A stretch of DNA of 64,000 nucleotides from a virus (lineage: Duplodnaviria > Caudoviricetes), in the IMG/VR virus record IMGVR_UViG_3300048502_000185, positions 26,988-90,987 of that record; one strand, written 5' to 3'. How positions within the stretch are numbered: the first letter of the stretch is position 1; each line of letters begins with the position of its first letter. Below the pieces are notes generated by a model. The model had not been told where the DNA came from and did no database searches. It saw only the letters and a list, made by a program, of their open reading frames with translations. This document shows, one piece after another, positions 5,713 to 58,255 of this stretch. Made by a program: the position numbers and the translations under genes.

Positions 5713-6726
5713 CTACTTCTTAGTATTTATAGCCCGATGGGAAGTCTTGACATTCTTTTTCATTAGTTCATTAAACTCTTTTTCATTTTTACAACGTAAA
5801 CCATGTATCCAATATTGCTTATGGCCATTTGACATGTAAATGGCGGGCCCATTTGCTCGATGGAACTTACCATTTAGATACCAATATTCATCCCCATTAG
5901 CATACTTAATAGCCGGGCCATCTTTGCGACTATATTTGCCATGTAGATACCAAAGCTTTGTGCCATCAGGATATTCTTGGGCTGGGCCATCTACACGGTG
6001 AAGTTTGCCTTTTAACCACCATTCTTTATAGCCATTAGGCGATTCTTTAGCGGGGCCATCTACCCTATGAAGCTTACCATATAGGTGCCAAAGCCTTGTG
6101 CCATCAGAATAGTTGATAGCGGGAGCATTTTCTCGATGGAGATTTTTGTTTAGATACCAAAACTTGGCGTTAGCATATTCTTGCAATTCGCCACCATTAG
6201 GAAGCTTCTTTATTTTAACAGTATTTTTCTTCGCTGGCTTAAGACCTTCACCATTTAGGAACCACCACTTTTCACCATTAGCAAACTCAACAGCAGGTCC
6301 ATTTTCTCGATGTAATTTATCATTTAAATACCATTCTTTATCACCATTAACTCTTTCAATAGCAGGACCATCTTCTCGATGAATCTTACCATTTAGATAA
6401 TAAATGGTATCACCATGGATATATTTAAAAATCTCTTTGCCATCAGGATATTTATATAATATTCCATTAGGCAATTTACTTATTTTAACTTTTTTCATTT
6501 TCTTTTCACCAACCTTAAACATCCAAGATTTAAAATCTAGACATTCGCCATATAGCCACCATTCTTTATCGCCTTCAGCAAAGTCTATGGCAGGACCATC
6601 TTCTCTATGGAATTCACCATTTAGGTAATGAATGGTATCACCATTGGTATATTTAAAAATCTCTATGCCATCAGGATATTTATATAATTTTCCATAAGGG
6701 AAATTACTTATTTTAACTTTTTTCAT
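5713..6726 (-). CDS. HREDGPA-repeat protein, long multi-unit member lacking the LKAFW tag
   Basis: Many HRE(D/N)GPA..NG.K.W repeats; three internal KK(V/I)KI.KLPNG starts suggest fused units. Confidence 0.85.
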   Translation of the reverse strand: MKKVKISNFPYGKLYKYPDGIEIFKYTNGDTIHYLNGEFHREDGPAIDFAEGDKEWWLYGECLDFKSWMFKVGEKKMKKVKISKLPNGILYKYPDGKEIFKYIHGDTIYYLNGKIHREDGPAIERVNGDKEWYLNDKLHRENGPAVEFANGEKWWFLNGEGLKPAKKNTVKIKKLPNGGELQEYANAKFWYLNKNLHRENAPAINYSDGTRLWHLYGKLHRVDGPAKESPNGYKEWWLKGKLHRVDGPAQEYPDGTKLWYLHGKYSRKDGPAIKYANGDEYWYLNGKFHRANGPAIYMSNGHKQYWIHGLRCKNEKEFNELMKKNVKTSHRAINTKK

Positions 6727-6733
6727 TTTCTTT

Positions 6734-6952
6734 TCACCAAAATGCTTTCAATCTCATTAGTCGCTCAAATTCTTCTTGAGTTTTACAAGATAATTTAACT
6801 CCATATAAATGCCATTCTACAAGACCATTAAATATGACAGCCGGGCCATCGTCTCTATGACGTGCACCATTTAGATACCAGAGTTCATCGCCATTAGTGT
6901 ATTTATGCCTGTTGCCACCATTAGGTAATGGAATTATTCTTAATATAGCCAT
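6734..6952 (-). CDS. HREDGPA-repeat family protein
   Basis: Repeat plus TQEEFERLMRLKAFW tag; start trimmed to MAILRII. Confidence 0.85.
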   Translation of the reverse strand: MAILRIIPLPNGGNRHKYTNGDELWYLNGARHRDDGPAVIFNGLVEWHLYGVKLSCKTQEEFERLMRLKAFW

Positions 6953-6954
6953 AT

Positions 6955-7311
6955 TTACCAGAATACTTTCAACTTCAATAGTCTTTCGAATTGTTCTTGA
7001 GTTGTGCAAGACAATTCCTTGCCGGATAGAAACCAGCCTTTATCACCATTAAAAGATTCAAATGCCGGACCATCTATGCGATGCATATTACCATTTAAAA
7101 ACCAAACTTTGGTTCCATTACTCATGGACATGGCTGGTCCACCTATTCTATGGTTTTTGCCATTTAGATACCAACACTCACCACCACCACCACTATACTT
7201 TATAGCAGGGCCATCCTCTCGGTGATATTCACCATTTTTATTAAAATATGATTTATCACCAGAATCATTCTGATGCAATTTACCGCCATTAGATAATTTA
7301 ATTCTCTTCAT
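6955..7311 (-). CDS. HREDGPA-repeat family protein
   Basis: Repeats plus RLLKLKVFW tag. Confidence 0.85.
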   Translation of the reverse strand: MKRIKLSNGGKLHQNDSGDKSYFNKNGEYHREDGPAIKYSGGGGECWYLNGKNHRIGGPAMSMSNGTKVWFLNGNMHRIDGPAFESFNGDKGWFLSGKELSCTTQEQFERLLKLKVFW

Positions 7312-7316
7312 TTTTT

Positions 7317-7607
7317 CTACCAAAACACCTTCACCTTCATTAATCTTTTAAATTCTTTTTGGGTGGTGCAAGGTATTTGCACACCATGCAGATACCAACG
7401 TTTATGTCCATCCCAACGGATTACAGCAGGACCGTCTTCTCGATGTAATTTATCATTTAGATACCAAGCTTTGGAACCAGTAGAAAGTTCCAAAGCGGGG
7501 CCATTCTCTCGATGTAATTTACCATTTAGAAGCCAATGTTTCTCACCATTAGGATATTTGTGTAACTCGCCGCCATTAGATAGTTTAGTTATTTTTTCCA
7601 TTTTCAT
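7317..7607 (-). CDS. HREDGPA-repeat family protein
   Basis: Repeats plus RLMKVKVFW tag. Confidence 0.85.
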   Translation of the reverse strand: MKMEKITKLSNGGELHKYPNGEKHWLLNGKLHRENGPALELSTGSKAWYLNDKLHREDGPAVIRWDGHKRWYLHGVQIPCTTQKEFKRLMKVKVFW

Positions 7608-7642
7608 TTTACTCACTCCGTGGAATCTTCGAAACGAAGATT

Positions 7643-7927
7643 CTACCAAAACCCTTTCAATCTCATGAGCCTTTCAAATTCTTCTTGAGAATTACAATCC
7701 AATCGCTCATCATTTAAATACCATTCACCTTCACCATTACCATAATCAATGGCAGGCCCGTCTTTTCTATGACGCTTGCCGTTTATATACCATTCTTTAA
7801 CACCACGAACACGATCCAAAGCGGGGCCATCTTCTCTGTGGCGAAGTCCATCAAAATAATAAAATTTGTTTCCATTAGATACTTCGTGCAAAACTCCACC
7901 ATTAGGCAGTTCCGTTACTTTTAACAT
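7643..7927 (-). CDS. HREDGPA-repeat family protein
   Basis: Repeats plus RLMRLKGFW tag. Confidence 0.85.
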   Translation of the reverse strand: MLKVTELPNGGVLHEVSNGNKFYYFDGLRHREDGPALDRVRGVKEWYINGKRHRKDGPAIDYGNGEGEWYLNDERLDCNSQEEFERLMRLKGFW

Positions 7928-7987
7928 TTTTCCTCAGCATAGATAACGAATTATTATCCATGATCGGGGAAACAAAATGGACTCTCA

Positions 7988-8410
7988 TTACCAAAATGCT
8001 TTTAGCAGCATTAGTCTTTCAAATTCTTCTTGAGTTTTACAAGGTATTCGTTCGCCATTTAGATACCAAGATTTTTTACCATTATCCCACTCAATAGCAG
8101 GGCCATCTTCTCGATGAAGTTTGTCATTTAGATACCATTCTTTATCGCCAGTAGCCCATACCAAGGCTGGTCCATATTTTCGGTGAAGTTTGCCTTCTAT
8201 ACGCCATTCTTTATAACCGCTGGTAAAGACTACGGCGGGGCCATCTTCTCTATGAAGCTTACCATCTATATACCAATATGTGGAATTGCCACTGTGAATA
8301 GCGGGGCCATCTTTTCTATGATATTTGTTATTTAGATAATAATATTTAGAGCCATCATTATATTCCCATAGTTTTCCGCCATTTGGTAAATCAGTTATTT
8401 TACAATCCAT
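7988..8410 (-). CDS. HREDGPA-repeat family protein
   Basis: Four repeats plus RLMLLKAFW tag. Confidence 0.85.
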   Translation of the reverse strand: MDCKITDLPNGGKLWEYNDGSKYYYLNNKYHRKDGPAIHSGNSTYWYIDGKLHREDGPAVVFTSGYKEWRIEGKLHRKYGPALVWATGDKEWYLNDKLHREDGPAIEWDNGKKSWYLNGERIPCKTQEEFERLMLLKAFW

Positions 8411-8441
8411 TTTTCCCCTATAGTGATTGCAAAATCACAAT

Positions 8442-8723
8442 CTACCAAAATGCTTTCAATCTCATTAGTCGCTCAAATTGTTCTTGAGTTTTACAAGGTA
8501 TAAGTTTGCCATTTATAAGCCATTCTTTTTGACCGCTACCCCATTCTATTGCTGGGCCATCTTCTCGATGAAGATTGTCATTTAGAAACCAAAATTTGTC
8601 ACCATTAGCAAACTCAATAGCCGGGCCATCTGTTCGATGAAGAAAGCCATTTAAAAACCAACTTTTGTCGCCACTATCATATTCATATAATTTGCCGCCA
8701 TTATATAATCTAGTTATTTTCAT
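8442..8723 (-). CDS. HREDGPA-repeat family protein
   Basis: Repeats plus RLMRLKAFW tag. Confidence 0.85.
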   Translation of the reverse strand: MKITRLYNGGKLYEYDSGDKSWFLNGFLHRTDGPAIEFANGDKFWFLNDNLHREDGPAIEWGSGQKEWLINGKLIPCKTQEQFERLMRLKAFW

Positions 8724-8767
8724 TTGTTTTACTTTACCCACTCCGTGGAATCTTCGAAACGAAGATT

Positions 8768-9055
8768 CTACCAAAACACTTTCAGTTTCATAAGTCTTTC
8801 AAATTGCTCTTGGTTTTTGCAATATAATTGCACACCATCTACATACCAATATTTATTACCATTGAGACAATCGATAGCAGGGCCATCTGTTCGATGGAGA
8901 TGGCCATTGATATACCAATAGCGAGTGCCATTTATTAGCTCAACGGCGCAACCATCTTCTCGATGATAATTATGATGCAAATAATAATACTTCTCACCAT
9001 CAGAATATTCATGCAGTTCGCCACCATTTGGCAACTGGGTTATCGTTCTATCCAT
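8768..9055 (-). CDS. HREDGPA-repeat family protein
   Basis: Repeats plus RLMKLKVFW tag. Confidence 0.85.
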   Translation of the reverse strand: MDRTITQLPNGGELHEYSDGEKYYYLHHNYHREDGCAVELINGTRYWYINGHLHRTDGPAIDCLNGNKYWYVDGVQLYCKNQEQFERLMKLKVFW

Positions 9056-9268
9056 TTACCAAAATGCTTTCAACTTCAATAGTCTTTCGAATTGAACTTG
9101 GGTTGTGCAAGGTACGCAAATACCATTTAGCCACCATTCTTTAGAGTCATCACTACGATCAACAGCCGGGCCATCTTCTCTATGGAATCCCTTATTCCGA
9201 AAATAATATTTATCACCAGAAGAATACTCGTGCATCCAGCAGTCATGAGGTAATTTAATTATTTTCAT
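9056..9268 (-). CDS. HREDGPA-repeat family protein
   Basis: One repeat plus RLLKLKAFW tag. Confidence 0.85.
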   Translation of the reverse strand: MKIIKLPHDCWMHEYSSGDKYYFRNKGFHREDGPAVDRSDDSKEWWLNGICVPCTTQVQFERLLKLKAFW

Positions 9269-9310
9269 TTTATACTTTATCCACTCCGTGGAATCTTCGA
9301 AACGAAGATT

Positions 9311-9523
9311 CTACCAAAATGCTTTCAATCTCATTAGTCTTTCGAATTGATCTTGAGTTGTGCAAGGTATTCGAATACCATTTAGCCACCATTCGTTAGT
9401 GCCATCAGGATTTTCAACAGCTGGACCATCATCTCTATGATATGATAAACTACGAAAATAATATTTATAACCAGGAGGATACTCATTCATCCAGCAACCA
9501 TGAGGTAATTTAGTTATTTTCAT
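9311..9523 (-). CDS. HREDGPA-repeat family protein
   Basis: One repeat plus RLMRLKAFW tag; close to the 9056 gene. Confidence 0.85.
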   Translation of the reverse strand: MKITKLPHGCWMNEYPPGYKYYFRSLSYHRDDGPAVENPDGTNEWWLNGIRIPCTTQDQFERLMRLKAFW

Positions 9524-11195: not shown

Positions 11196-11203
11196 TGTTC
11201 CTT

Positions 11204-12385: not shown

Positions 12386-12496
12386 AGATTTTTTTACCAA
12401 CTTTCGTTATAGGTTTATGCTCCCTCGGCAACTTGCTGCTGATGGGAGCGTTTTTTTTCGTCTCATACAGGCGACACGGCATGTGCCCCGATGGGA

Positions 12497-13986: not shown

Positions 13987-14025
13987 TTAATGGATAGCCT
14001 GCTTTCTTTTTTGTTAGGTTAATTG

Positions 14026-21361: not shown

Positions 21362-21643
21362 TTACCAGAATGCTTTCAATCTCATCAATCTTTCAAATTC
21401 TTCTTGAGTTTTGCAAGGTATTTGCTTATCATTTAGATACCAAGATTTATTACCATTAGCCCATTCAATAGCAGGACCATCTTCTCGGTGCCACTTACCA
21501 TTTACCCACCATTGTTTATGTCCATCAGGATATTCTATAGCCGGACCATCTGTTCGATGAAGATGGCCATTTAAATGCCAACATTTAACACCATCAATTT
21601 CGCGTAATGTTCCATCATTAGGTAATTTAGTTATTTTATACAT
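21362..21643 (-). CDS. HREDGPA-repeat family protein
   Basis: Repeats plus RLMRLKAFW tag. Confidence 0.88.
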   Translation of the reverse strand: MYKITKLPNDGTLREIDGVKCWHLNGHLHRTDGPAIEYPDGHKQWWVNGKWHREDGPAIEWANGNKSWYLNDKQIPCKTQEEFERLMRLKAFW

Positions 21644-21664
21644 TTTATATTAGTCCTTCGGACT

Positions 21665-22096
21665 TCACCAAAACACTCTCAAACTCATTAACCGTTCAAA
21701 TTCTTCCTGAGTGGTGCAATCTATTCGTACATCATTTAGATACCAAAACTTATTACCATTAATATCTTCTAAAGCGGGGCCATCTTCCCTGTGAAGCTTA
21801 TCATGAATATAATATTCTTTATCACCATTAATATATTCAACGGCAGGACCATCTTCTCGATGGAACTGACCATTTAGAATCCAATATTTGACATCATTAG
21901 TATATTCAATAGCAGGTCCATCTTCTCTATGTAACTTGCCTTTTATATACCATTCTTTATCGCCGTTATAGCGTTCTATTGCTGGACCGTCTTCTCGATG
22001 AAGTAAATTATTTAAACGATAAATCTTGGTTCCATCTGACAATTCACACAATTCACCACCATTAGGCAATTTAATTTTTTTAACTATGCCGTTCAT
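21665..22096 (-). CDS. HREDGPA-repeat family protein
   Basis: Four repeats plus RLMSLRVFW tag. Confidence 0.88.
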   Translation of the reverse strand: MNGIVKKIKLPNGGELCELSDGTKIYRLNNLLHREDGPAIERYNGDKEWYIKGKLHREDGPAIEYTNDVKYWILNGQFHREDGPAVEYINGDKEYYIHDKLHREDGPALEDINGNKFWYLNDVRIDCTTQEEFERLMSLRVFW

Positions 22097-22098
22097 AA

Positions 22099-22569
22099 TT
22101 ACCGCTTCAACGAAAGATTACAACCCGTCGCAACTGCATTAATGCAAACAAGATAGCCCAAACAAATCCAAGCAAGTGGATGGAGACAATCAGGCAGCGG
22201 CGAAACCATGACGCCTTCAATCAGCAAAACCCAGCCCAAGGCCTTCAGAGATGAATTGAAAGCAGCCTTGCACCAAGAATATACCGTAGGTGCCGAGAAG
22301 CACAAAGCCCCAATCACAAAGTAAGTTGGAACTTGTTCCAACAGATTTGCGTTCATATCAAGTGCATTATGGGCAACCAAAAATGCAGCTGTCGGCACAA
22401 CGCCACCGAGCAAAATACCGATTGTGGTAGCACTCAAATACTTGCGAGAGAATGCCATGCGCGTCTGTGCGACAACGCTTTTTGGAGATTGAATATTAAC
22501 CCGTCTTGCGACTCGAATACGTTTAGTTGACTCAGGTGCCGAATCGAGAAACTTATGTGCTGTGTTCAT
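22099..22569 (-). CDS. Multi-pass membrane protein
   Basis: About four hydrophobic segments. Confidence 0.7.
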   Translation of the reverse strand: MNTAHKFLDSAPESTKRIRVARRVNIQSPKSVVAQTRMAFSRKYLSATTIGILLGGVVPTAAFLVAHNALDMNANLLEQVPTYFVIGALCFSAPTVYSWCKAAFNSSLKALGWVLLIEGVMVSPLPDCLHPLAWICLGYLVCINAVATGCNLSLKR

Positions 22570-23411: not shown

Positions 23412-23463
23412 TTTAATTCTCCGTTATACTTATGTACTTGTCATGCCACCGATGGGAATCGGA

Positions 23464-23745
23464 TCACCAAAATGCTTTCAGTTTCATAAGTCGTTCAAAT
23501 TCTTCTTGAGTTTTGCAAGGCACATGCTTGTCATTTATATACCAATATTTATCACCATTAACACCTTCAGACGCTGGACCATCTTCTCGATGAAGTTTAC
23601 CATTTAGATACCACCATTTACTGCCATCATCATTTTCAACAGCAGGACCATCTTCTCGGTGAAGATTACCATTTAAATACCATTCTTTATTGCCATCAGA
23701 ATCCTCTTGCAATTCGCCACCATTGGGTAGTTTAGTTATTTTCAT
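23464..23745 (-). CDS. HREDGPA-repeat family protein
   Basis: Repeats plus RLMKLKAFW tag. Confidence 0.88.
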   Translation of the reverse strand: MKITKLPNGGELQEDSDGNKEWYLNGNLHREDGPAVENDDGSKWWYLNGKLHREDGPASEGVNGDKYWYINDKHVPCKTQEEFERLMKLKAFW

Positions 23746-23749
23746 ATTT

Positions 23750-23965
23750 TCACCAGAATGCTTTCAATCTCATTAGTCTTTCAAATTGCTTTTGAGTTGT
23801 GCAAGGTAAACGTTCACCATTTACCCACCATTCTTTACTGCCATCATCATTTTCAACAGCAGGACCATCTTCTCTATGATAAATATCATATAGAAACCAA
23901 CATTTGTTGCCATTAGCATATTCTACTAATCGACCACCATTAGGCAATTTAATTAATCTTTTCAT
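23750..23965 (-). CDS. HREDGPA-repeat family protein
   Basis: One repeat plus RLMRLKAFW tag. Confidence 0.85.
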   Translation of the reverse strand: MKRLIKLPNGGRLVEYANGNKCWFLYDIYHREDGPAVENDDGSKEWWVNGERLPCTTQKQFERLMRLKAFW

Positions 23966-25763: not shown

Positions 25764-25785
25764 TGTTTTTTTTCTTTCATAGTAG

Positions 25786-25868
25786 TACCGAAGAAGGGAT
25801 TTGAACCCTTACACCCGTGAGGGTAACCGATCTTGAGCCGGTCGTGTCTGCCATTCCACCACTTCGGC
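25786..25868 (-). tRNA. trnL: tRNA-Leu(CAA)
   Basis: GCCGAAG/CTTCGGT acceptor stem; D-loop TGGAATGGCAGAC; anticodon arm ACCGG-CTCAAGA-TCGGT; long variable arm; AAGGG-TTCAAAT-CCCTT T arm; followed by CTA, not CCA. Confidence 0.93.
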
Positions 25869-49869: not shown

Positions 49870-50044
49870 AACCAAAACATTCATTAGAAACTAGATGTCA
49901 TCCAAAGAGGTTTTGAAAACCACCCAAAAAACCGCGTCCGAAAAAACCCAAGCAATATCAACGAGTTATAAAAAGCAAAACTCATTTTCGCCGTAGGCGG
50001 AATTCAGTTTTTCCAGACTAGTGTGTTGGAGGTAAGTTTTTTGA

Positions 50045-50371
50045 TTACTTTGACTCCGCAGAGACGGTGTCTGAGCAGGTCGCCTGAAACGTCATTGTAA
50101 CGGTGTAAGTTCCCTGACCCTGAGTCATTGACACGATGACCTTGTGAGATACTTCGTAGCCGTTGTGACAGGGGTGGTCACTGTCAGCACCCCTTGACAT
50201 AAGGGATTGTGCCACATTAAGCGCAGCATGAATGTTTGATTCTCTAAAGTCATCAGATGTCGCCTTGCCAATGTAGGTTTCGGTCCAGGACTTTGAGGCA
50301 AGTGCAGTGCCAGCCAACGAAAGAATGGCAAGGGCGGCAAACATTCCGAGGGTTTTTTTGGGGGAGTTCAT
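50045..50371 (-). CDS. Secreted protein (family with 45882 and 49112)
   Basis: Signal peptide ALA-SKSWTETYIG.ATS. Confidence 0.7.
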   Translation of the reverse strand: MNSPKKTLGMFAALAILSLAGTALASKSWTETYIGKATSDDFRESNIHAALNVAQSLMSRGADSDHPCHNGYEVSHKVIVSMTQGQGTYTVTMTFQATCSDTVSAESK

Positions 50372-50399
50372 AATATATGGGCATAATAAAGAATAGGAT

Positions 50400-51317
50400 G
50401 GGAAGTCAAGGTTGTTCTTTGAAAATTAATAGTAATCAAGGTGGGTATTTGTAAGTTCCGCGCGGGAAGTGTATGTTTTTTGAGAAAATTATGGGGAATT
50501 GAAAGGGTTTGGGAGAATTGGTATGGATTGTGCAAGGAATGCAAGAAGGATGCCAAGGGGAAAGAATTGAGGGAAAATTGAGGGGGGGGTTTTTTGGTGG
50601 GGTGTTTTGGCGGGATGGTTTTGGGTTGGGGAGAAGGGGGTTGATGGGAGGGCGGACGAATTGGCTCCCCAAATAGGGTAAAATGGTATTGTAATGGTAT
50701 TGGAATAGTATTGGGTAATAGAGTTGGAGTAAGATCAGGATAAGATCCTAATCATGTTTACATCAGTTTTTAAGCAATGTAGATAACCCAATAAGTAATC
50801 GTTATGGCTAATATATAATAGCAATTAGAACTACAATATTCAATAACAAATACATAAGATATTTACTATCCTATTAGACAAAAGTTAGATAATCATCATA
50901 TACCTATAAATAAAGGTAATTAATATATATTTTTTATATAATTTATATGCATAATCTAATATAAATAATTAGATATAAACGGCAAGTTATTCTACTAACA
51001 CTTTCACACAATTTTTAGTGTAAATAATAAGCGAATATAATATCATATAGAACGGATAAAACAAACCAAATATAATCACAAATAATCATAACAGGCATTT
51101 AGAACTTCAAATTACTCATTAGGGCATTATTGAATCTTCATAAAGGGCAATTAGAATAATTTTAGAGTGCGAAAGCACAAAAAACTTGATGATAAAGTCT
51201 GTTTTGGAGCAAAACTAGGATGAAAAACGGGTTTTTGATTTTAGAGCAATTTGAAAAATTAGTAAGATGATTTTTGCGGTTGAGCTAAGGAATTTGACAT
51301 ATGGTCATATATGGTCA
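50400..51317. other. Long non-coding block: G-tract segment followed by very AT-rich segment (candidate origin or domain boundary)
   Basis: No credible ORF; G-runs at 50580-50660; A/T-rich 50700-51250. Confidence 0.45.
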
Positions 51318-51557
51318 TTACCAGAATGCCCTTAATCTCATAAGTTGTTCAAATTGCTTTTGAGTAGTGCAATCTAATTGTATATCATTTATATACCAAT
51401 ATTTAATGCCATCGGCATATTCAACAGCAGGACCATCTTCTCTATGAAGAAGTCCATTTAACCACCAATGTTTACTATCCTGCATGTAGTAATATACGCC
51501 CTCATCAGAATTATATTCTTCTAATTCACCACCATTAGGAAGTTTAGTTATTTTCAT
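51318..51557 (-). CDS. HREDGPA-repeat family protein
   Basis: Repeat plus QLMRLRAFW tag. Confidence 0.88.
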   Translation of the reverse strand: MKITKLPNGGELEEYNSDEGVYYYMQDSKHWWLNGLLHREDGPAVEYADGIKYWYINDIQLDCTTQKQFEQLMRLRAFW

Positions 51558-51560
51558 ATC

Positions 51561-51776
51561 TCACCAAAATGCTTTCAGCCTCATAAGTTGTTCAAATTGC
51601 TTTTGAGTTTTGCAAAGTATCTGTTTATCATTTATATACCAAAACTTATCCCCATTAGACCACTCAATAGCAGGGCCATCTTCTCGATGAAACTTACCAT
51701 TTAATTGCCACCATTTTGTGCCATCAGGCCATTCAAGTAATATACCGCCATTAGGTAATTTGGTTATTTTTATCAT
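51561..51776 (-). CDS. HREDGPA-repeat family protein
   Basis: Repeat plus QLMRLKAFW tag. Confidence 0.88.
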   Translation of the reverse strand: MIKITKLPNGGILLEWPDGTKWWQLNGKFHREDGPAIEWSNGDKFWYINDKQILCKTQKQFEQLMRLKAFW

Positions 51777-52061
51777 TTACCAGAATCCTTTCAACTTTAT
51801 TAATCGTAGGAATTGCTTTTGAGTGGTACAAGATATTAGTTGCCCATTTAACCACCATTCTTTATCGCCACTAATATAGTCTATTGCTGGGCCATCTTCT
51901 CTATGACGATTGCCATTTAGATACCAATATTTATCGCCATTGGCGAGTTCAATTGCATGACCATCTTCACGATGATATTTGCCATTTAGATGCCAAAATT
52001 TGCTACCATTGGTATATTCATAAAATTCGCCACCATTAGATAATTGAGTTATTTTATACAT
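51777..52061 (-). CDS. HREDGPA-repeat family protein
   Basis: Repeats plus RLIKLKGFW tag. Confidence 0.85.
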   Translation of the reverse strand: MYKITQLSNGGEFYEYTNGSKFWHLNGKYHREDGHAIELANGDKYWYLNGNRHREDGPAIDYISGDKEWWLNGQLISCTTQKQFLRLIKLKGFW

Positions 52062-52072
52062 ATTATCACTCC

Positions 52073-52366
52073 TTACCAGAATCCTTTCAACTTCATTAAT
52101 CGTAGGAATTGATCTTGAGAGGTACAAGGTATGTGTATTCCATTTATCCACCATTCTTTGTTACCATTGGGGTAGTCCCTAGCAGGGCCATCTTCCCTAT
52201 GATGATGGCCATTTAACCACCATTCTTTATAACCATCAGACCATTCGCGAGCAGGGGCACCTTCACGATGAAACTTACCATTTAAATACCATTCTTTGTC
52301 ACCATTCCAATATTCATATAATCTTCCACCATTAGGAAGATCAGTTATTTTTGTTTTCTTTTTCAT
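52073..52366 (-). CDS. HREDGPA-repeat family protein
   Basis: Repeats plus RLMKLKGFW tag; three tandem AAGGAACGC copies upstream. Confidence 0.85.
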   Translation of the reverse strand: MKKKTKITDLPNGGRLYEYWNGDKEWYLNGKFHREGAPAREWSDGYKEWWLNGHHHREDGPARDYPNGNKEWWINGIHIPCTSQDQFLRLMKLKGFW

Positions 52367-52392
52367 TGCGTTCCTTGCGTTCCTTGCGTTCC

Positions 52393-52812
52393 TTACCAAA
52401 ATGTTTTCAACTTCATTAGTTGCAAGAATTGTTTTTGAGTAGTGCAAGGTATTCGTTCACCATTTAAATACCAATATTTGGTGCCATCAACAAAGTCTAT
52501 GGCAGGACCGTCTTCTCTATGGAACTGATTATTTAGATACCAAATTTTATCACCATTAGCATATTCAGGGGCAGGACCATCTTCTCTATGAGGAAGACCA
52601 TTGATATACCATCTTGTATCACCACCATGATATATGATAGCTGGGGCCCCTTTTCTATGAATCCGACCATTTAGAAACCAATATTTATCACCATTGGCGT
52701 ATTCTATGGCAGGACCGTCTTCTCTATGGAACTTACCAAACATATAATATTCTTTATGGCCACTTGGATATTCGCGTAATTCCCTATCATATGATAATAT
52801 AGTTGTTTTCAT
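52393..52812 (-). CDS. HREDGPA-repeat family protein
   Basis: Four repeats plus QLMKLKTFW tag. Confidence 0.88.
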   Translation of the reverse strand: MKTTILSYDRELREYPSGHKEYYMFGKFHREDGPAIEYANGDKYWFLNGRIHRKGAPAIIYHGGDTRWYINGLPHREDGPAPEYANGDKIWYLNNQFHREDGPAIDFVDGTKYWYLNGERIPCTTQKQFLQLMKLKTFW

Positions 52813-52819
52813 ATTAGGA

Positions 52820-53032
52820 TCACCAGAATGCCTTTAATCTCATAAGTTGTTCAAATTGCTTTTGGGTTGTGCAAGATAATCGTTCACCATTTAAATACCA
52901 AGATTTATTGCCATTAACACGTTCAATGGCAGGGCCATCTACTCGATGAAGTTGGTCATTTAGATACCACCATTTATCACCATTAATATATTGTATGATT
53001 ATACCACCATTAGGTAATTTTATTACTTTCAT
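52820..53032 (-). CDS. HREDGPA-repeat family protein
   Basis: Repeat plus QLMRLKAFW tag. Confidence 0.88.
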   Translation of the reverse strand: MKVIKLPNGGIIIQYINGDKWWYLNDQLHRVDGPAIERVNGNKSWYLNGERLSCTTQKQFEQLMRLKAFW

Positions 53033-53075
53033 TTTTGATCCTTACCCACTCCGTGGAATCTTCGAAACGAAGATT

Positions 53076-53354
53076 CTACCAAAATGCTTTCAATTTTATT
53101 AACTGTTTAAATTCTTTTTGAGATACATGTTTATCATTTAGCCACCATTCTTTGGTGCCATTAGCATTGTCAATAGCGGGCCCGTCTTCTCGATGACGCT
53201 TACCATTTAGAAGCCAATGTTTTTCACCATTAGCATATTCAATGGCAGGGCCTTCCTCGCGATGACATATACCATTTAAAACCCAAAATTTGTCACCACT
53301 ATCATATTCATATAATTTACCACCATTTGGTAATTTTAAATAAAGTTCAGCCAT
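53076..53354 (-). CDS. HREDGPA-repeat family protein
   Basis: Repeats plus QLIKLKAFW tag. Confidence 0.88.
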   Translation of the reverse strand: MAELYLKLPNGGKLYEYDSGDKFWVLNGICHREEGPAIEYANGEKHWLLNGKRHREDGPAIDNANGTKEWWLNDKHVSQKEFKQLIKLKAFW

Positions 53355-53387
53355 ATTATTATCTCCAATTAATTATTATCGTTGTTT

Positions 53388-53603
53388 TCACCAGAATGCT
53401 TTTAATCTCATAAGTTGTTCGAATTGTTTTTGTGTTGTGCAAGGTAAGAGTTCGCCATTTATACACCATTCTTTATAAGCATTAATCCATTCAACAGCAG
53501 GACCATTTTCTCTATGTAGTTTACCATTTAAGAACCACCATTTATCACCATTAGGATATTCGTGTAATTCTCCACCACTAGATAATTTACTTATTTTAAT
53601 CAT
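53388..53603 (-). CDS. HREDGPA-repeat family protein
   Basis: Repeat plus QLMRLKAFW tag. Confidence 0.88.
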   Translation of the reverse strand: MIKISKLSSGGELHEYPNGDKWWFLNGKLHRENGPAVEWINAYKEWCINGELLPCTTQKQFEQLMRLKAFW

Positions 53604-53608
53604 TTTAT

Positions 53609-53953
53609 TTACCAGAACGCTTTCAATCTCATTAGTCTTTCAAATTCTTCTTGAGTTTTACAAGATATTTGTATGCCATTCATCCACCAAGATTTAACGC
53701 TATAATATTCAGAAGCAGGACCATCTATTCGATGAGGCAAGCCATTTTTATACCAAGCTTTATATCCATTGGCAAGGTCAAGAGCCGGACCATTTTCTCT
53801 ATGTAACCTGCCTTTTATATACCATTCTTTATCGCCGTTATAGCGTTCTATTGCTGGACCGTCTTCTCGATGAAGTAAATTATTTAAACGATAATGCTTG
53901 GTGCCATCGCTAAATTTATATACTTCTGCATTATTGACTAGTTTAGTTATCAT
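53609..53953 (-). CDS. HREDGPA-repeat family protein
   Basis: Three repeats plus RLMRLKAFW tag. Confidence 0.88.
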   Translation of the reverse strand: MITKLVNNAEVYKFSDGTKHYRLNNLLHREDGPAIERYNGDKEWYIKGRLHRENGPALDLANGYKAWYKNGLPHRIDGPASEYYSVKSWWMNGIQISCKTQEEFERLMRLKAFW

Positions 53954-53954
53954 T

Positions 53955-54236
53955 TTACCAGAACGCTTTCAATCTCATTAGTCTTTCAAATTCTTCTTGA
54001 GTGGTGCAAGATAGTCCTTCACCATGTAACCACCATTCTTTATGATTGCTATAATATACAACAGCAGGACCATCTTCTCTATGAAGTTTATTATTAATAT
54101 AATATTCTTTGTCGCCATTAGCATATTCTATGGCAGGACCATCTTCTCTATGATAATTGTTATTTAGATACCATCTTTTAGTGCCATTGCTTTGTTCATA
54201 TAATTCTCCTCCATTAGGTAATTTAGTTATTTTCAT
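53955..54236 (-). CDS. HREDGPA-repeat family protein
   Basis: Repeats plus RLMRLKAFW tag. Confidence 0.88.
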   Translation of the reverse strand: MKITKLPNGGELYEQSNGTKRWYLNNNYHREDGPAIEYANGDKEYYINNKLHREDGPAVVYYSNHKEWWLHGEGLSCTTQEEFERLMRLKAFW

Positions 54237-54239
54237 ATC

Positions 54240-54515
54240 TCACCAGAATGCCCTCAATCTCATAAGTCGTTCAAATTCTTTTTGATTTGTGCAATGTATT
54301 GACCATTTCAGATACCAATATTTATCACCATGGGCATATTCAATGGCAGGGCCATCTGCCCTATGATATTTGCCATCTATACACCAATATTTATCACCAT
54401 TATTATATTCAACGGCAGGACCATCTTCTCTATGTCGTTTATCATTTAGAAAATAATATTTATCACCATTATCTTCATATAATTCACAACCATTAGGTAA
54501 TTTAGTTATTTTCAT
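54240..54515 (-). CDS. HREDGPA-repeat family protein
   Basis: Repeats plus RLMRLRAFW tag. Confidence 0.85.
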   Translation of the reverse strand: MKITKLPNGCELYEDNGDKYYFLNDKRHREDGPAVEYNNGDKYWCIDGKYHRADGPAIEYAHGDKYWYLKWSIHCTNQKEFERLMRLRAFW

Positions 54516-54548
54516 ATTTTCTACCAACGAAGAAAGCGAAACGCTTTC

Positions 54549-54827
54549 TTACCAGAATGCCTTTAATCTCATAAGTCGTTCGAATTCTTTTTGAGTTTTG
54601 CAACGTATTTGTATATTATTTAGATACCAATATTTATCGCCATTAAGAAACTCAACAGCAGGTCCGTCTTCTCTATGATAGTTGCCATTTAGATACCAAA
54701 TTTTAATACCACTTGAATACTCAACGGCAGGACCATCTTCTCTATGAAGATCTCCATTTAAATACCAACATTTAACGCCACCACTTTCGTGTAATTCTCC
54801 ACCATTAGGTAATTTAGTTGTTGTCAT
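54549..54827 (-). CDS. HREDGPA-repeat family protein
   Basis: Repeats plus RLMRLKAFW tag. Confidence 0.88.
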   Translation of the reverse strand: MTTTKLPNGGELHESGGVKCWYLNGDLHREDGPAVEYSSGIKIWYLNGNYHREDGPAVEFLNGDKYWYLNNIQIRCKTQKEFERLMRLKAFW

Positions 54828-54882
54828 TTTTTCCTTTTAGGATGTAGGCTTTGGCTCATTGATGAGAACTCTTGTTTTCATC

Positions 54883-55159
54883 CTACCAGAATGCTTTCAA
54901 TCTCATTAGTCTTTCAAATTCTTTTTGAGTAGTGCAAGGTATATGTTTACCATTTATAATACCACTCTTTATTGCCATAAATATATTCTACAGCAGGACC
55001 ATCTTCTCGATGAAGATTACCATAGAAAAGCCAACATTTGGAACCATTAGGATATTTTAATAAATACCCGCCATTTGGCAATGCAGATGTTATAATTGGG
55101 TTAAAATCGCTTTTCTTAATTTTTGCTATTTTATTGGATACTTTTTTAGTTTTTTTCAT
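54883..55159 (-). pseudogene. HREDGPA-repeat family gene with a frameshift before the tag
   Basis: One extra T in TGGTATTATAAATGG; the other frame reads HIPCTTQKEFERLMRLKAFW*. Confidence 0.7.
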
Positions 55160-55178
55160 TTTTTCTTACTTTATATAT

Positions 55179-55481
55179 TTACCAGAATACTTTCAATCTC
55201 ATAAGTTGTTCAAATTGCTTTTGAGTAGTGCAAGGTATTTGCTGACCATTTATCCACCATTCCTTATAACCACTAAGACATTCAACAGCTGGTCCATCTA
55301 TGCGATGAATTTTATGATTTATATACCACATTTTATTGCCACTAATAAACTCAATTGCGGGACCATCATCACGATGATTTTGATTATTAAGATACCAAAA
55401 CTTATCGCCATTAGAATGTTCTGCCAAAATACCACCATTAGGTAATTTTGTTATTTTGTGTTCAGATAGATAGTTAGACAT
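55179..55481 (-). CDS. HREDGPA-repeat family protein
   Basis: Repeats plus QLMRLKVFW tag. Confidence 0.88.
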   Translation of the reverse strand: MSNYLSEHKITKLPNGGILAEHSNGDKFWYLNNQNHRDDGPAIEFISGNKMWYINHKIHRIDGPAVECLSGYKEWWINGQQIPCTTQKQFEQLMRLKVFW

Positions 55482-55514
55482 TGTTATGGCTTTCTTTAGA
55501 TATTAATTTGTGAA

Positions 55515-56000
55515 ACATATGGTCATTTAGACTGCTTGGTGGTTCAGGGAACATTTGTCCAGCGAGGAACGCCTATGGAATAAATTCTATTGTGGCTGGG
55601 GTAGATTGAGCGTAGGTTTTGGAGCGCGAGGCTATGTTGGGGCGTTTTGAGATTGGCGCGAAGTTAGAATTAGATTGTGGGACAGATCGTGTGTTTGGAG
55701 CTACGGCTGAGCTTGTCAAATATTATTGGACAATTTTTGGAATTATTTTTAATTGCGGGCTGGGTCGGAGCGGGGAAAGGGGGACTATAGGGGGTTTGGG
55801 CGTACCGTCTGCATTGGGTATTATTGGTAGGTTGATCCGTAAGATATTAGAATAAATATTCGTTAAAACCGAGAGGAGATCGAGAAGAGATCTTAGTATT
55901 TTCTTAGTATCTCCAAATTATTTTAGATATCTTTAATTATATCTTATATCTCCATTATATCTTATATCTCCTATATATCTTCTATACAGGGAAACTAAAA
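55515..56000 (-). repeat. Dispersed non-coding element, copy C (inverted)
   Basis: Reverse complement contains AATACTAAGATCTCTTCTCGATCTCCTCTCGGTT, ATCTGTCCCACAATCTAATTCTAA, CAACATAGCC and AATGACCATATG. Confidence 0.75.
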
Positions 56001-56008
56001 AATTGATA

Positions 56009-56351
56009 TTACCAGAACCCTTTCAGTTTTATCAGTTGACTAAACTCTTTTATAGTAGTTATAAGTTTGCCATTTAGCCACCATTCTTTGTTGCCATTAG
56101 CACGTTCAATAGCAGGGCCATCTTCTCTATGGATATGATCATTTAGATACCAATATTTAGTGCCATCAGTAAACTCAACAGCAGGTCCATCTGTTCGATG
56201 ATATTTGCCATTTAGATACCAATATTTATCACCATTAATATATTCAACTGCAGGACCATTTTCTCGATGAAGATGACCATTTAAAAGCCAAAATTTATCG
56301 CCACTAGTATATTCACAATTCGCCACCATTAGGCAATTTAGTTATTTTCAT
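56009..56351 (-). pseudogene. HREDGPA-repeat family gene with a frameshift near the start
   Basis: MKITKLPNGGEL* then continues in another frame to QLIKLKGFW. Confidence 0.7.
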
Positions 56352-56358
56352 TTTTATC

Positions 56359-56712
56359 TCACCAGAATGCTTTCAATCTCATTAGTCGTTCAAATTCTTT
56401 TGAGTTTTGCAAAGTATTTGTATATCATTTAGATACCAATATTTATCACCATTGGCAACTTCAATAGCAGGACCATCTTCTCTATGACGATTTACCATTT
56501 ATATACCAACATTTAAGCCCACTAATAATAGTCACATAGCAGGACCATCTTCTCGATGGAATTTGCCATTTATATACCAATATTTATCACCATTAGTATA
56601 TTCAATTGCTGGACCATCTTCCCTGTGAAGTTTACCATTTAAATACCAGAGTTTATTGCCACTTTTATATTCTTCTATTTGCGCCACCATTAGGTAATTT
56701 AATTATTTTCAT
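56359..56712 (-). pseudogene. HREDGPA-repeat family gene with several single-base insertions (missed by ORF track)
   Basis: MKIIKLPNGG start, repeats and RLMRLKAFW tag recoverable across ~4 indels. Confidence 0.7.
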
Positions 56713-56733
56713 TTTATATTAGTCCTTCGGACT

Positions 56734-57087
56734 TCACAAGAACGCTTTAAGTTTTAATAGTCTTTCAAATTCCTTTTGAGTAGTGCAAGATAAAACCTGT
56801 CCATTCAACCACCATTCTTTAAAACCAGTAGTATATTCAATTGCTGGACCATCTTCCCTATGAAGATTATCATTCACATACCAAAATTTATCGCCATTTA
56901 ACCATAAGATGGCAGGACCATCTATACGATGGCGTTTGTTATTTACCCACCATTCTTTCTTACCATCAAAAGATTCAATCGCAGGTCCATCTATGCGATG
57001 AATATTGCCATCTAAAAACCAATATTTATTGCCGCTAGGATATTCATATAATTCGCCACCATTAGGTAATTTAGTTATTTTTTCCAT
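56734..57087 (-). CDS. HREDGPA-repeat family protein
   Basis: Three repeats plus RLLKLKAFL tag. Confidence 0.85.
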   Translation of the reverse strand: MEKITKLPNGGELYEYPSGNKYWFLDGNIHRIDGPAIESFDGKKEWWVNNKRHRIDGPAILWLNGDKFWYVNDNLHREDGPAIEYTTGFKEWWLNGQVLSCTTQKEFERLLKLKAFL

Positions 57088-57137
57088 TTTTCCTTTCAGT
57101 GATATTACGTGCCTCAAACTTCGAAGGTTTATCATAT

Positions 57138-57473
57138 TCACCAAAACGCCTTAAGTTTCATAAGTTGTAGAAATTGTTCTTGTGATATGTGTATATCATT
57201 TAGATACCAATATTTAGCACCATTAGTATGTTCAAAAGCAGGACCATCTTCTCTATGACGTATCCCATGTATATACCATGCTTTACGATCTGAATATTCA
57301 CCGGCTGGACCATCTTTTCGATGTAATTTGCCATTTAGATACCAATAATTATCACCATTGGCAACTTCAATAGCCGGGCCATCTTCTCGGTGAAGTTGGC
57401 CATTTAGATACCACCATTTATTACCATGAGCCTCATGCAATTCGCCACCATTAGGTAATTTTGTTATTTTCAT
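57138..57473 (-). CDS. HREDGPA-repeat family protein
   Basis: Three repeats plus QLMKLKAFW tag. Confidence 0.88.
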   Translation of the reverse strand: MKITKLPNGGELHEAHGNKWWYLNGQLHREDGPAIEVANGDNYWYLNGKLHRKDGPAGEYSDRKAWYIHGIRHREDGPAFEHTNGAKYWYLNDIHISQEQFLQLMKLKAFW

Positions 57474-57479
57474 TTGTTT

Positions 57480-57899
57480 TTACCAGAATGCTCTCAATCT
57501 CATTAGTCTTTCAAATTCTTTTTGAGTAGTGCAATCTAATTGTATATCATTTATATACCAATATTTAGTGCCATCGGCATATTCAACGGCAGGGCCATCC
57601 TCTCGATGAATTTTATCATTTAGATACCACTGTTTTTCACCATCAGCATATTCAACAGCCGGACCATCTTCTCGATGAAGTCTACCACTTAGATACCAAC
57701 ATTTTTTACCATTAGGATATTCAACAGCAGCACCATCTTCTCGATGAAGTTTACCATTTAGATACCAATAATTATCACAATAATCACCTTCAATAGCAAG
57801 ACCATCTTCACGATGTAATTTACCATTTAGAAGCCAATGTTTCTCACCATCAATAGTTTCTCGTAATTCTCCGCCATTAGGTAATTCAGTTATTTTCAT
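57480..57899 (-). CDS. HREDGPA-repeat family protein
   Basis: Four repeats plus RLMRLRAFW tag. Confidence 0.88.
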   Translation of the reverse strand: MKITELPNGGELRETIDGEKHWLLNGKLHREDGLAIEGDYCDNYWYLNGKLHREDGAAVEYPNGKKCWYLSGRLHREDGPAVEYADGEKQWYLNDKIHREDGPAVEYADGTKYWYINDIQLDCTTQKEFERLMRLRAFW

Positions 57900-57903
57900 A
57901 ATT

Positions 57904-58255
57904 TTACCAGAATGCTTTCAACTTCATAAATCTGTTCAAATTGTTTTTGGTTTTTATAACATATACCATGTATCCACCAAAATTTATCACCATTAGATAT
58001 CTCAACAGCAGGACCATCTTCTCGATGACGAAGACCATTTATATACCAATGTTTATCGCCATTAATATAATCAACAGCAGGTCCATCTTCTCGATGTAGA
58101 CAACCATTTATATACCATAATTTATCACCATTGGCACGGTCAATAGCGGGACCATCTTCTCTATGGTGTTTTCCTTTTAACCAATAGCACTTGGTGCCAT
58201 TACCATATTCTATTAATTCTACACTATTTGATAATTTGATGAAATTTGTATACAT
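57904..58255 (-). CDS. HREDGPA-repeat family protein with a frameshift inside the tag
   Basis: CAGATT-T-ATGAAGTTGAAAGCATTCTGGTAA: removing one T restores QIMKLKAFW*. Confidence 0.75.

What the first reader, a model, noticed from the sequence alone, without database searches (positions are those of the whole stretch)
5713..58255. Repertoire of 34 HREDGPA-repeat genes with constant-variable-constant architecture
Seen: 10 genes at 5.7-9.5 kb, 2+2 at 21.4-24.0 kb and 20 at 51.3-58.3 kb, plus a tag-only remnant at the contig end. Each has an MKITKLPNGGEL-like start, then mostly 1-4 copies (more in the long 5713 member) of a ~22-aa HREDGPA(I/V)E..NG.K.W.(L/I)NG repeat with variable intervening residues, then C(K/T)TQ(E/K)(E/Q)F(E/L)(R/Q)LM(R/K)LKAFW-stop. 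The repeat loosely recalls MORN-variant/YwqK beta-hairpin repeats (inference). Hypothesis: a diversified binder or inhibitor library, e.g. decoys against host defence proteins, docked by the invariant terminal helix.
Basis: partly seen in the sequence, partly recalled or inferred. Interest (0 to 1): 0.82.

Follow-up and report, generated by a model that had tools for sequence, protein, structure and literature searches.

The report
Phage array of MORN-like repeat genes
A very large uncultured phage spends about a sixth of this window on more than 30 small sister genes for capped MORN-like beta-hairpin repeat proteins. Sister assemblies differ in which of these genes are present, so they look like a fast-changing set of protein binders, but their targets are unknown.

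Summary
The window holds 32 readable and 2 broken genes of one family, all on the minus strand, in the three places named. At least 7 more lie upstream in the same 91-kb viral record, and 3 lie beyond its end.

Each protein has three parts:
- an N-terminal cap hairpin (MKITKLPNGGEL);
- 1-4 copies (8 in one triple fusion) of a 23-residue HREDGPA unit;
- a C-terminal helix (CxTQxxFxRLMxLKAFW).

AlphaFold2 models are confident (pLDDT 93-95). The four-repeat model hits MORN1, MORN4 and junctophilin first in the PDB. No curated family claims the proteins.

Silent sites are saturated. The scaffold and tail residues are nevertheless held fixed, while six surface positions per repeat change as fast as silent sites.

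Sister assemblies from other samples are 99-100% identical in the flanks. Inside the arrays they differ by whole-gene swaps, chimeras and frameshifts.

Other phage lineages carry similar arrays with their own fixed caps. The constant-variable-constant layout therefore reads as cap-repeat-cap.

A binder repertoire is the best reading. Docking through the tail, and decoy action against host defence, are untested.

The scan has met this family before in at least 8 other genomes. No paper describing it was found.

The parts
5713..6726 (-). 337-aa family gene with 8 repeats. It is an in-frame fusion of three units (internal N-cap-like stretches) with a degenerate tail. It is the last gene of cluster 1.
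   Evidence: a TCCCATCGG motif lies in its 3' end
6734..6952 (-). family gene, 72 aa, 1 repeat, canonical tail
6955..7311 (-). family gene, 118 aa, 3 repeats
7317..7601 (-). family gene, 94 aa, 2 repeats
7643..7927 (-). family gene, 94 aa, 2 repeats
   Evidence: a 98% identical copy follows different neighbours in L085
7988..8410 (-). family gene, 140 aa, 4 repeats
8442..8723 (-). family gene, 93 aa, 2 repeats
8768..9055 (-). family gene, 95 aa, 2 repeats
9056..9268 (-). family gene, 70 aa, 1 repeat
9311..9523 (-). family gene, 70 aa, 1 repeat; first gene of cluster 1
21362..21643 (-). family gene, 93 aa, 2 repeats
21665..22096 (-). family gene, 143 aa, 4 repeats. It shares a 100-nt patch (99/100 identical) with the gene at 53609.
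23464..23745 (-). family gene, 93 aa, 2 repeats; the member modelled (pLDDT 95.1)
23750..23965 (-). family gene, 71 aa, 1 repeat
51318..51557 (-). family gene, 79 aa, 1 repeat; last gene of cluster 3
51561..51776 (-). family gene, 71 aa, 1 repeat
51777..52061 (-). family gene, 94 aa, 2 repeats
52073..52366 (-). family gene, 97 aa, 2 repeats
52393..52812 (-). family gene, 139 aa, 4 repeats
52820..53032 (-). family gene, 70 aa, 1 repeat
53076..53354 (-). family gene, 92 aa, 2 repeats; tail lacks the Cys
53388..53603 (-). family gene, 71 aa, 1 repeat. Other cassettes take its place in L083, L084 and L085.
53609..53953 (-). family gene, 114 aa, 3 repeats (= P0104). Three other assemblies stop matching the window 3 nt past its stop codon.
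53955..54236 (-). family gene, 93 aa, 2 repeats; degraded in L088
54240..54515 (-). family gene, 91 aa, 2 repeats; degraded in L088
54549..54827 (-). family gene, 92 aa, 2 repeats
54883..55165 (-). family gene broken by a frameshift into two pieces; also broken in L088
55179..55481 (-). family gene, 100 aa, 2 repeats
56009..56329 (-). family gene, 106 aa, 3 repeats. Its N-cap is split off by a frameshift just upstream. It is whole (114-117 aa) in L088, L089 and L090.
56359..56702 (-). family gene broken into three pieces. It is whole (116 aa) in L089. In L090, four other cassettes follow a recombinant two-repeat version of it.
56734..57087 (-). family gene, 117 aa, 3 repeats; tail ends in L instead of W
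57138..57473 (-). family gene, 111 aa, 3 repeats
57480..57899 (-). family gene, 139 aa, 4 repeats; the second member modelled (pLDDT 93.2). The identical protein is carried by 9 other contigs; the six shown come from six samples.
57896..58255 (-). family gene, 119 aa, 3 repeats; first gene of cluster 3. Its tail is frameshifted here and intact in L088.
63913..64000 (-). 3' end of a further family gene with a divergent tail, cut off by the end of the record. It is whole (83 aa) in L089.
7614..7643 (-). 30-nt hairpin element just after a family gene's stop codon. There are four exact copies; the others are at 8739-8768, 9282-9311 and 53047-53076.

Best explanation
These genes encode small cytoplasmic repeat proteins of the MORN type. 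An N-terminal cap hairpin is followed by 1-4 copies of a 23-residue beta-hairpin unit, which together form one elongated antiparallel sheet. A C-terminal amphipathic helix closes the domain.

The turn and frame residues are H1, R2, D4, G5, P6, A7, G13, K15, W17 and N20. These and the two caps are held by selection. Six positions per unit (10, 11, 14, 16, 22, 23) are free to change.

The phage keeps dozens of such genes head to tail in accessory regions. The population reshuffles them by recombination between paralogues, giving whole-cassette swaps, chimeras, fusions and losses.

The most likely use is inferred, not shown: a repertoire of protein-binding modules acting on host proteins, or on proteins of competing elements, inside the infected cell. 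Each copy would have its own surface. MORN domains and YwqK-type immunity proteins work this way, by binding partners.

On this reading the constant tail is first of all a structural cap. Whether it also docks on a shared partner is open.
For: Shown here:
- Fold. The AlphaFold2 models have pLDDT 95.1 (2 repeats) and 93.2 (4 repeats). They show regular hairpins and a terminal helix at residues 80-90 or 126-138.
- PDB matches. The Foldseek hits of the 4-repeat model are headed by MORN1 (E 1.2e-4 to 1.3e-3). They continue almost only with MORN proteins: radial-spoke and central-pair proteins, MORN4 and junctophilin. MORN repeats are protein-protein interaction modules (PMC7725318).
- Period and conservation. 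The period is 23 aa, and the conservation profile separates frame positions from variable ones.
- Selection. In 16 two-repeat paralogues, silent differences are near saturation everywhere (pS 0.5-0.64). Replacement differences are 0.07 in the frame, 0.13 in the tail and 0.52 at the variable positions. The constancy is therefore protein-level selection, not recent copying.
- Exchange within the genome. A 99/100-nt patch is shared by genes 32 kb apart.
- Variation between assemblies. Differences are 5-8 times denser in family genes than in flanks in the three longest comparisons (L088, L089, L090). They sit in patches.
- Cassette turnover. Neighbouring cassettes that are 100% identical flank cassettes found nowhere in this record. 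Breakpoints lie at gene ends, at 53606 and 56009.
- Wider distribution. The same cap-repeat-cap design, with other cap sequences, forms arrays of up to 19 genes in other large phages. Four of the ten records checked carry a T4-type capsid gene.
- Use as a general module. The repeat is fused to many unrelated domains in longer proteins.
Against: - No partner, expression data or phenotype is available.
- The variable positions evolve at about the silent rate (ratio 1.0 at saturation). This fits relaxed constraint as well as diversifying selection.
- Several copies are broken.
- Structural similarity to solved MORN proteins is modest (TM 0.38-0.47, VIA Z at most 6). No curated sequence model of MORN, MORN_2 or YwqK is matched.
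- Contig-level rearrangements could be partly assembly chimeras in a repeated family. They could also be second copies elsewhere in the unseen 80% of the genome.
Confidence: 0.5

Rival explanations
1. Adaptor library. The invariant C-terminal helix, with its terminal F-W, binds one shared partner: a host machine such as a protease or chaperone, or a phage enzyme. The variable sheet recruits different targets to it. Poxvirus ankyrin-PRANC proteins do this with host ubiquitin ligase.
For: - The tail is the most constrained stretch outside the frame residues (pN 0.13, pS 0.64).
- F and W at the very end are invariant in A1, yet the last three residues are modelled with low confidence (block mean 57). 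Such residues are often functional rather than packed.
- Tails of the same type, (E/Q)E(F/Y)....KL..(F/L)W at the C-terminus, recur in two other diverged lineages with different N-caps (L003, L024). They also recur in database proteins with other N-termini.
Against: - Other lineages have quite different constant tails (L044, L057, and the VEIDGKKYKL and MTMEEINKALGK types). A universal partner is therefore unlikely.
- The tail is found on no other kind of ORF in this record.
- A capping helix after the last MORN repeat is expected for structural reasons alone.
- No candidate partner was identified.
Confidence: 0.2
2. Structural or non-binder role. The proteins are virion-associated (decoration, fibre or baseplate accessory), or they act on membranes or lipids, as was first proposed for MORN repeats.
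For: - VIA-align gives middling matches to phage baseplate and spike beta structures (Z 5-6).
- Fibre-like genes (Laminin_G_3, GH16, FGE-sulfatase domains) lie upstream in the record, near the first family genes.
Against: - Z values of 5-6 are in the range of chance for small beta proteins (note).
- Virion parts are not usually kept in 40+ divergent copies of 70-140 aa that come and go between strains.
- MORN1 did not bind membranes when tested (PMC7725318).
- No hydrophobic segment or signal peptide is evident in the sequences (read by eye, not tested with a predictor).
Confidence: 0.12
3. Mostly neutral gene-family churn. The array expands and contracts by unequal recombination because its units are similar. 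Most copies have no individual function.
For: - Four of 20 copies in cluster 3 carry frameshifts.
- One gene is a three-unit fusion.
- The variable positions change at the silent rate.
- Cassette content differs between strains.
Against: - Silent sites are saturated, yet 30 of 32 genes keep open frames, frame residues and both caps. That requires long-term purifying selection on most copies.
- Lesions present here are intact in sister strains.
- The design is kept across distant phage lineages and in about 31,700 database clusters.
Confidence: 0.1

Closest known systems
Eukaryotic MORN-repeat proteins with solved structures (MORN1 6T4D/6T68/6T69, MORN4-Myo3a 6JLE, junctophilin 7RXE; Pfam PF02493; PMC7725318)
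   Same: - A repeat of about 23 residues, each a beta-hairpin.
- The repeats stack into one elongated antiparallel sheet.
- Gly-rich turns and a conserved aromatic residue.
- These proteins lead the structural hits of the 4-repeat model.
- They act as protein-protein interaction modules.
- In junctophilin a helix lies along the sheet (from my own knowledge).
   Different: - A different sequence signature: HREDGPA...NG.K.W.LNG instead of YxGxWxxGKxHGxG.
- No PF02493 match.
- TM-scores are only 0.38-0.47.
- These are tiny stand-alone proteins with dedicated caps.
- They are encoded by phages in arrays of dozens of copies.
MORN variant / YwqK family (Pfam PF07661 MORN_2). NCBI names these 'toxin-antitoxin system YwqK family antitoxin'. 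B. subtilis YwqK is the immunity protein of the YwqJ toxin (from my own knowledge, not checked here).
   Same: - The Y.NGK turn motif and hairpin repeat.
- Small cytoplasmic binders that neutralise a partner protein.
- They are often multiplied in immunity loci.
   Different: - There is only one sub-threshold hit (19.1 bits against a cut-off of 29.6, in 1 of 8 proteins).
- There is no relevant NCBIfam match.
- No toxin gene was noticed beside these arrays.
Pfam DUF6745 (PF20530), uncharacterised
   Same: It is the only curated model scored above its cut-off (37.6 and 30.5 bits in 2 of 8 proteins). Many database relatives carry it.
   Different: Only profile positions 63-101 of 206 are matched, that is, the part that contains this repeat. 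The rest of the DUF6745 domain is absent.
Uncharacterised relatives in cultured viruses: Celeribacter phage P12053L gp09 (I6R9J2), several Agrobacterium phage Atu_ph07 proteins, mimivirus R871, and klosneuvirus 'MORN repeat' proteins
   Same: - The same repeat by sequence (59% identity to gp09).
- The same repeat by model (BFVD E 1e-9 to 1e-5).
- In P12053L the gene lies among small genes between thyX and the primase.
   Different: - There are one or a few copies per genome there, not about 45.
- The caps differ.
- None has been studied.
Lineage-specific expansions of small proteins in jumbo phages and of repeat proteins in large DNA viruses. Examples: about 35 zinc-ribbon copies in Bacillus phage G (PMC7824862), and poxvirus ankyrin-PRANC families (from my own knowledge).
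   Same: - Dozens of paralogues of a small interaction module.
- They are clustered in accessory regions.
- The poxvirus case also combines variable repeats with a constant C-terminal docking helix.
   Different: - A different fold.
- No ubiquitin system in bacteria.
- Docking by the tail is not shown here.

Membership tests
MORN repeat (structure-based definition; Pfam PF02493) | Tandem units of about 23 residues, each a beta-hairpin | tested here: met
   The spacing is 23 aa in 43 of 48 pairs. The models show regular strand pairs per unit at pLDDT 93-95.
MORN repeat (structure-based definition; Pfam PF02493) | Elongated antiparallel sheet superposable on solved MORN proteins | tested here: inconclusive
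   The 4-repeat model's top hits are MORN1, E 1.2e-4 to 1.3e-3, prob 1.00, and nearly all further hits are MORN proteins. But TM is 0.38-0.47. The 2-repeat model gives E 0.09 or worse and VIA Z at most 6.
MORN repeat (structure-based definition; Pfam PF02493) | Sequence signature matched by the Pfam MORN model | tested here: not met
   No PF02493 hit at E up to 1 in 8 members.
MORN_2 / YwqK family (PF07661; NCBIfam YwqK antitoxin) | Match to the curated model above its cut-off | tested here: not met
   The best score is 19.1 bits against a cut-off of 29.6, in 1 of 8 proteins. NCBIfam gave no relevant hit.
MORN_2 / YwqK family (PF07661; NCBIfam YwqK antitoxin) | Gene next to a cognate toxin gene | not tested
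   The neighbours inside the arrays are other family genes. No systematic search for toxin domains was made.
DUF6745 (PF20530) | Match over the whole 206-position domain | tested here: not met
   Only positions 63-101 are matched. The score is above the cut-off in 2 of 8 proteins.
Known anti-phage defence or counter-defence proteins (PADLOC-DB) | Match to any model | tested here: not met
   No hit at E up to 0.1 for 6 members. The library holds defence proteins, not anti-defence proteins, so this says little.
Capped repeat-protein binder design (as in ankyrin or LRR repertoires; a functional class, not a homology family) | Fixed frame and caps with variation confined to a few positions per repeat | tested here: met
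   Entropy per position. pN is 0.07 in the frame, 0.13 in the tail and 0.52 at the variable positions, at equal pS.
Capped repeat-protein binder design (as in ankyrin or LRR repertoires; a functional class, not a homology family) | Demonstrated binding to targets | not testable with these tools
   The host and targets are unknown. Pull-downs or two-hybrid screens are needed.

The most novel reading that the evidence does not exclude
The constant C-terminal helix ending in F-W is a docking signal. It plugs every family member into one shared host or phage machine. The array would then be a substrate-adaptor library, a bacterial-virus counterpart of the poxvirus ankyrin-PRANC system. Its cassettes would be swapped between strains as hosts change.
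Probability: 0.15. Interest if true: 0.8.

Novelty: new variant of a known kind. Interest (0 to 1): 0.5.

Why it matters
Large phages carry many small genes of unknown use. This one family takes 14-17% of the sequence seen here. Its profile matches about 31,700 protein clusters in public data, and no paper describing it was found.

The family shows the marks of an arms-race repertoire: a selected frame, a free surface and cassette turnover between co-occurring strains. If the copies bind host proteins, they would be a large natural source of small, stable, cap-stabilised binders and of new phage-host interaction pairs.

Two cultivable phages with relatives make the question testable: Agrobacterium phage Atu_ph07 and Celeribacter phage P12053L.

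Tried and rejected
- Homodimer prediction of the 93-aa member (complex prediction): no verdict (score 0.00). This counts neither for nor against pairing through the tail.
- Sequence search of the PDB with the family profile: no hit.
- NCBIfam and PADLOC: nothing relevant.
- PHROGs: only weak hits to families of unknown function.
- Cellular genomes: two scans of genome contigs gave nothing usable. The tool chose tail or variable-region peptides as patterns, so this does not show absence from bacteria. Relatives cannot be drawn for a virus record.
- Promoter and terminator scans of clusters 1 and 3: counts equal to shuffles, so there is no information on timing.
- Shared tail with the neighbouring zinc-ribbon family (60815-63910):
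  - By eye both families end in T(T/P)Q....(K/R)L..(L/W)..F. at the C-terminus.
  - hhalign finds nothing.
  - A tail PSSM scores the zinc-ribbon ends only about 1.9 SD above other C-termini. All scores are negative, and internal segments often score as well or better. Rejected as unsupported.
- Silent-site conservation of the gene ends, reported for this family in another genome: not seen here (pS 0.52 in the N-cap, 0.64 in the tail).
- Shared non-family genes between this record and other array-bearing loci, as a way to find a tail partner: almost none.
- Literature: searches for the motif, for DUF6745, and for MORN repeats in phages found no description. The jumbo-phage review does not mention the family.

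Full report
**Where the window lies.** The window is bases 26988-90987 of a 90,987-bp IMG/VR virus record that CheckV rates about 20% complete. Genes are short, dense and almost all on the minus strand. Recognisable ones are phage-like:
- an FtsK-like ATPase, a DNA methyltransferase and a GIY-YIG homing endonuclease;
- fibre-like lectin and glycosidase domains upstream;
- one tRNA-Leu.

A 281-aa protein at 22566-23411 has a 60% identical homologue in a 480,838-bp viral record, L081. That locus shares a few more genes with this record. This is therefore very probably a phage of several hundred kb. No T4-type or NCLDV capsid gene was found in that relative. The host is unknown.

**The observation.** ORF lists and a motif scan confirm the three groups: 10 genes at 5713-9523, 2+2 at 21362-23965 and 20 at 51318-58255.
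- Thirty-two are readable.
- Two are split by frameshifts (54883-55165, 56359-56702).
- One has lost its N-cap to a frameshift (56009).
- One has a frameshifted tail (57896).
- The 337-aa first member is three units fused in frame.

Genes abut: 14 of the 25 short gaps measured are 11 nt or less, and one pair overlaps by 4 nt. The record has at least 7 further copies upstream. The 'remnant' at the contig end is a whole gene in sister contig L089, which shows two more beyond it. The family takes 17% of the window.

**Anatomy.** The unit is 23 residues with consensus HREDGPAIEYANGDKEWYLNGKL.
- H1, R2, D4, G5, P6, A7, G13, K15, W17 and N20 are nearly fixed.
- Positions 10, 11, 14, 16, 22 and 23 have about 3 bits of entropy.

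AlphaFold2 gives pLDDT 95.1 and pTM 0.82 for a 2-repeat member, and pLDDT 93.2 for a 4-repeat member. The N-terminal MKITKLPNGGEL stretch forms extra strands that continue the sheet, so it is a degenerate cap repeat. The tail is one helix. The last three residues (A-F-W) are the only part with low confidence. On this reading, 'constant-variable-constant' is cap-repeat-cap.

**What the fold resembles.**
- The 2-repeat model gives only weak PDB matches: MORN4 and the CPAP G-box at E 0.09 or worse, and VIA Z at most 6.
- The 4-repeat model puts MORN1 of Toxoplasma, Trypanosoma and Plasmodium first (E 1.2e-4 to 1.3e-3). Nearly all of its further hits are MORN proteins, although TM-scores are only 0.38-0.47.
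- By sequence, no MORN model is matched. MORN_2 is sub-threshold in one protein. DUF6745 is matched only over its repeat-bearing part.
- NCBIfam, PADLOC and a sequence search of the PDB give nothing.
- Among viral models, the relatives are uncharacterised proteins of uncultured tailed phages, Celeribacter phage P12053L, Agrobacterium phage Atu_ph07 and several giant viruses. Some of these are labelled MORN.

**Size of the family.** The family profile finds 31,658 representative clusters at E 0.001 or better, and 17,788 at 1e-10. A single member finds more than 6,500 clusters of similar length, none with a name. Longer forms reach about 1,500 aa, and some are fused to assorted unrelated domains. 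Literature searches found no description.

**Selection.** The test used 16 two-repeat paralogues.
- Silent differences are close to saturation in every part (pS 0.47-0.64).
- Replacement differences are 0.07 in the frame, 0.13 in the tail, 0.28 in the N-cap and 0.52 at the six variable positions.

The constant parts are therefore kept by selection on the protein, not by recent copying or gene conversion. The variable positions change about as fast as silent sites. At this divergence, that cannot separate positive selection from lack of constraint.

**Recombination within the genome.** Some paralogue pairs share long near-identical patches against a diverged background:
- 99 of 100 nt between genes at 21665 and 53609, which are 32 kb apart;
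- 119 of 131 nt between the 3' ends of the genes at 51318 and 57480.

**Variation between strains (the main new result).** Exact-protein look-ups brought in contigs of the same phage from at least six other samples.
- *Flanks.* These are 99-100% identical.
- *Density of differences.* In the long comparisons, differences are much denser in family genes than elsewhere, and they come in patches:
  - L088: 2.17% against 0.26%, and 1.55% against 0.00%;
  - L089: 1.30% against 0.28%;
  - L090: 8.35% against 1.81%.
- *L083, L084 and L085.* All three stop matching the window 3 nt after the stop codon of gene 53609. They continue with cassettes absent from this record. L085 then runs into a 98% copy of cluster 1.
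- *L083.* It also joins the upstream cluster of this record directly to part of cluster 3.
- *L090.* A recombinant two-repeat version of the broken gene at 56359-56702 is followed by four other cassettes that the window lacks.
- *L088.* Three genes that are intact here are degraded there.

Two caveats apply. Assemblers can make chimeras in repeated families. Some of these contigs could also be second copies from the unseen part of the genome. Against the first caveat, the junction at 53606 recurs in three samples.

**Other lineages.** Arrays of up to 19 genes per 20 kb occur in many large viral contigs. Four of the ten records checked have a T4-type capsid gene. Each lineage has its own constant N-terminus and C-terminus. 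Two lineages have tails of the same type as here: SQEEFEEQIKLAMFW and SEEEYWRVVKLKALW. Others have unrelated tails. About a fifth of the 120 best short database relatives, read by eye, end in this tail type, often behind a different N-terminus.

**Interpretation.**
- *Shown:* a selected frame and caps, a free surface, and cassette turnover.
- *Inferred:* the copies are intracellular binders with different targets. This follows from what MORN domains do and from the YwqK analogy, which rests on my own knowledge.
The tail's strong constraint and its poorly modelled invariant F-W fit that idea. The lineage-specific tails, and the absence of the tail from other ORFs here, fit a plain cap.
- *No direct evidence:* defence decoys.

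**Earlier notes of this scan.** Earlier notes describe the same family in at least 8 other genomes, with similar conclusions. The same record was also noted in an overlapping window. One such report found silent-site conservation at the gene ends. That is not seen here.

Noticed in passing
60815-63910 (minus strand): A second tandem family: 10 overlapping genes of 77-124 aa. Most have two CxxC pairs (zinc-ribbon-like) and a conserved C-terminus, LTPQNI..KL..WL.F.. It recalls the zinc-ribbon expansion reported for Bacillus phage G (PMC7824862). The resemblance of its tail to the HREDGPA tail is not statistically supported.
   Followed up: partly
194-49807, minus strand: The motif TCCCATCRG occurs 49 times against about 1 expected, 48 of them on the gene strand. 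Only one copy lies in a family gene (5734, in the 3' end of the 5713 gene), and there are none at 51-64 kb. Copies sit just downstream of cluster 1 (5734) and of the two small groups (21190, 23449).
   Followed up: partly
7614-7643, 8739-8768, 9282-9311, 53047-53076 (minus strand): Four exact copies of a 30-nt element with a 9-bp stem (GAATCTTCG TTT CGAAGATTC) lie directly after family-gene stop codons, against 0 expected by chance. It could be an RNA processing or stability signal, or a small mobile element.
   Followed up: partly
58280-58963 and 60164-60805 (plus strand): Two paralogous genes on the opposite strand. Both have a hydrophobic N-terminus and an HExxH motif (HEMGHLLG, HEVGHLLG), so they look like secreted zinc metallopeptidases. 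This was read from the translation only.
   Followed up: no
58978-59796 (minus strand): A GIY-YIG homing endonuclease. In sister contigs L089 and L090 the gene at this place is shorter (249 aa) and shows no GIY-YIG hit.
   Followed up: no
22566-23411 (minus strand): A 281-aa protein between the two small family groups carries two CxxCxGxG motifs like the DnaJ zinc-finger. It has a 60% identical homologue in a 480-kb viral record, L081.
   Followed up: partly
50000-64000: G+C drops from 0.45-0.49 (36-50 kb) to 0.28-0.36. Cluster 1 (6-10 kb) is also low, at 0.36. The arrays therefore sit in AT-rich blocks.
   Followed up: no
L083:7821-8738: In the sister contig with the alternative arrangement, the array is followed by a patatin-like phospholipase gene and other genes not present in this record.
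   Followed up: no
25785-25868 (minus strand): A tRNA-Leu (anticodon CAA), the only tRNA in the window.
   Followed up: no
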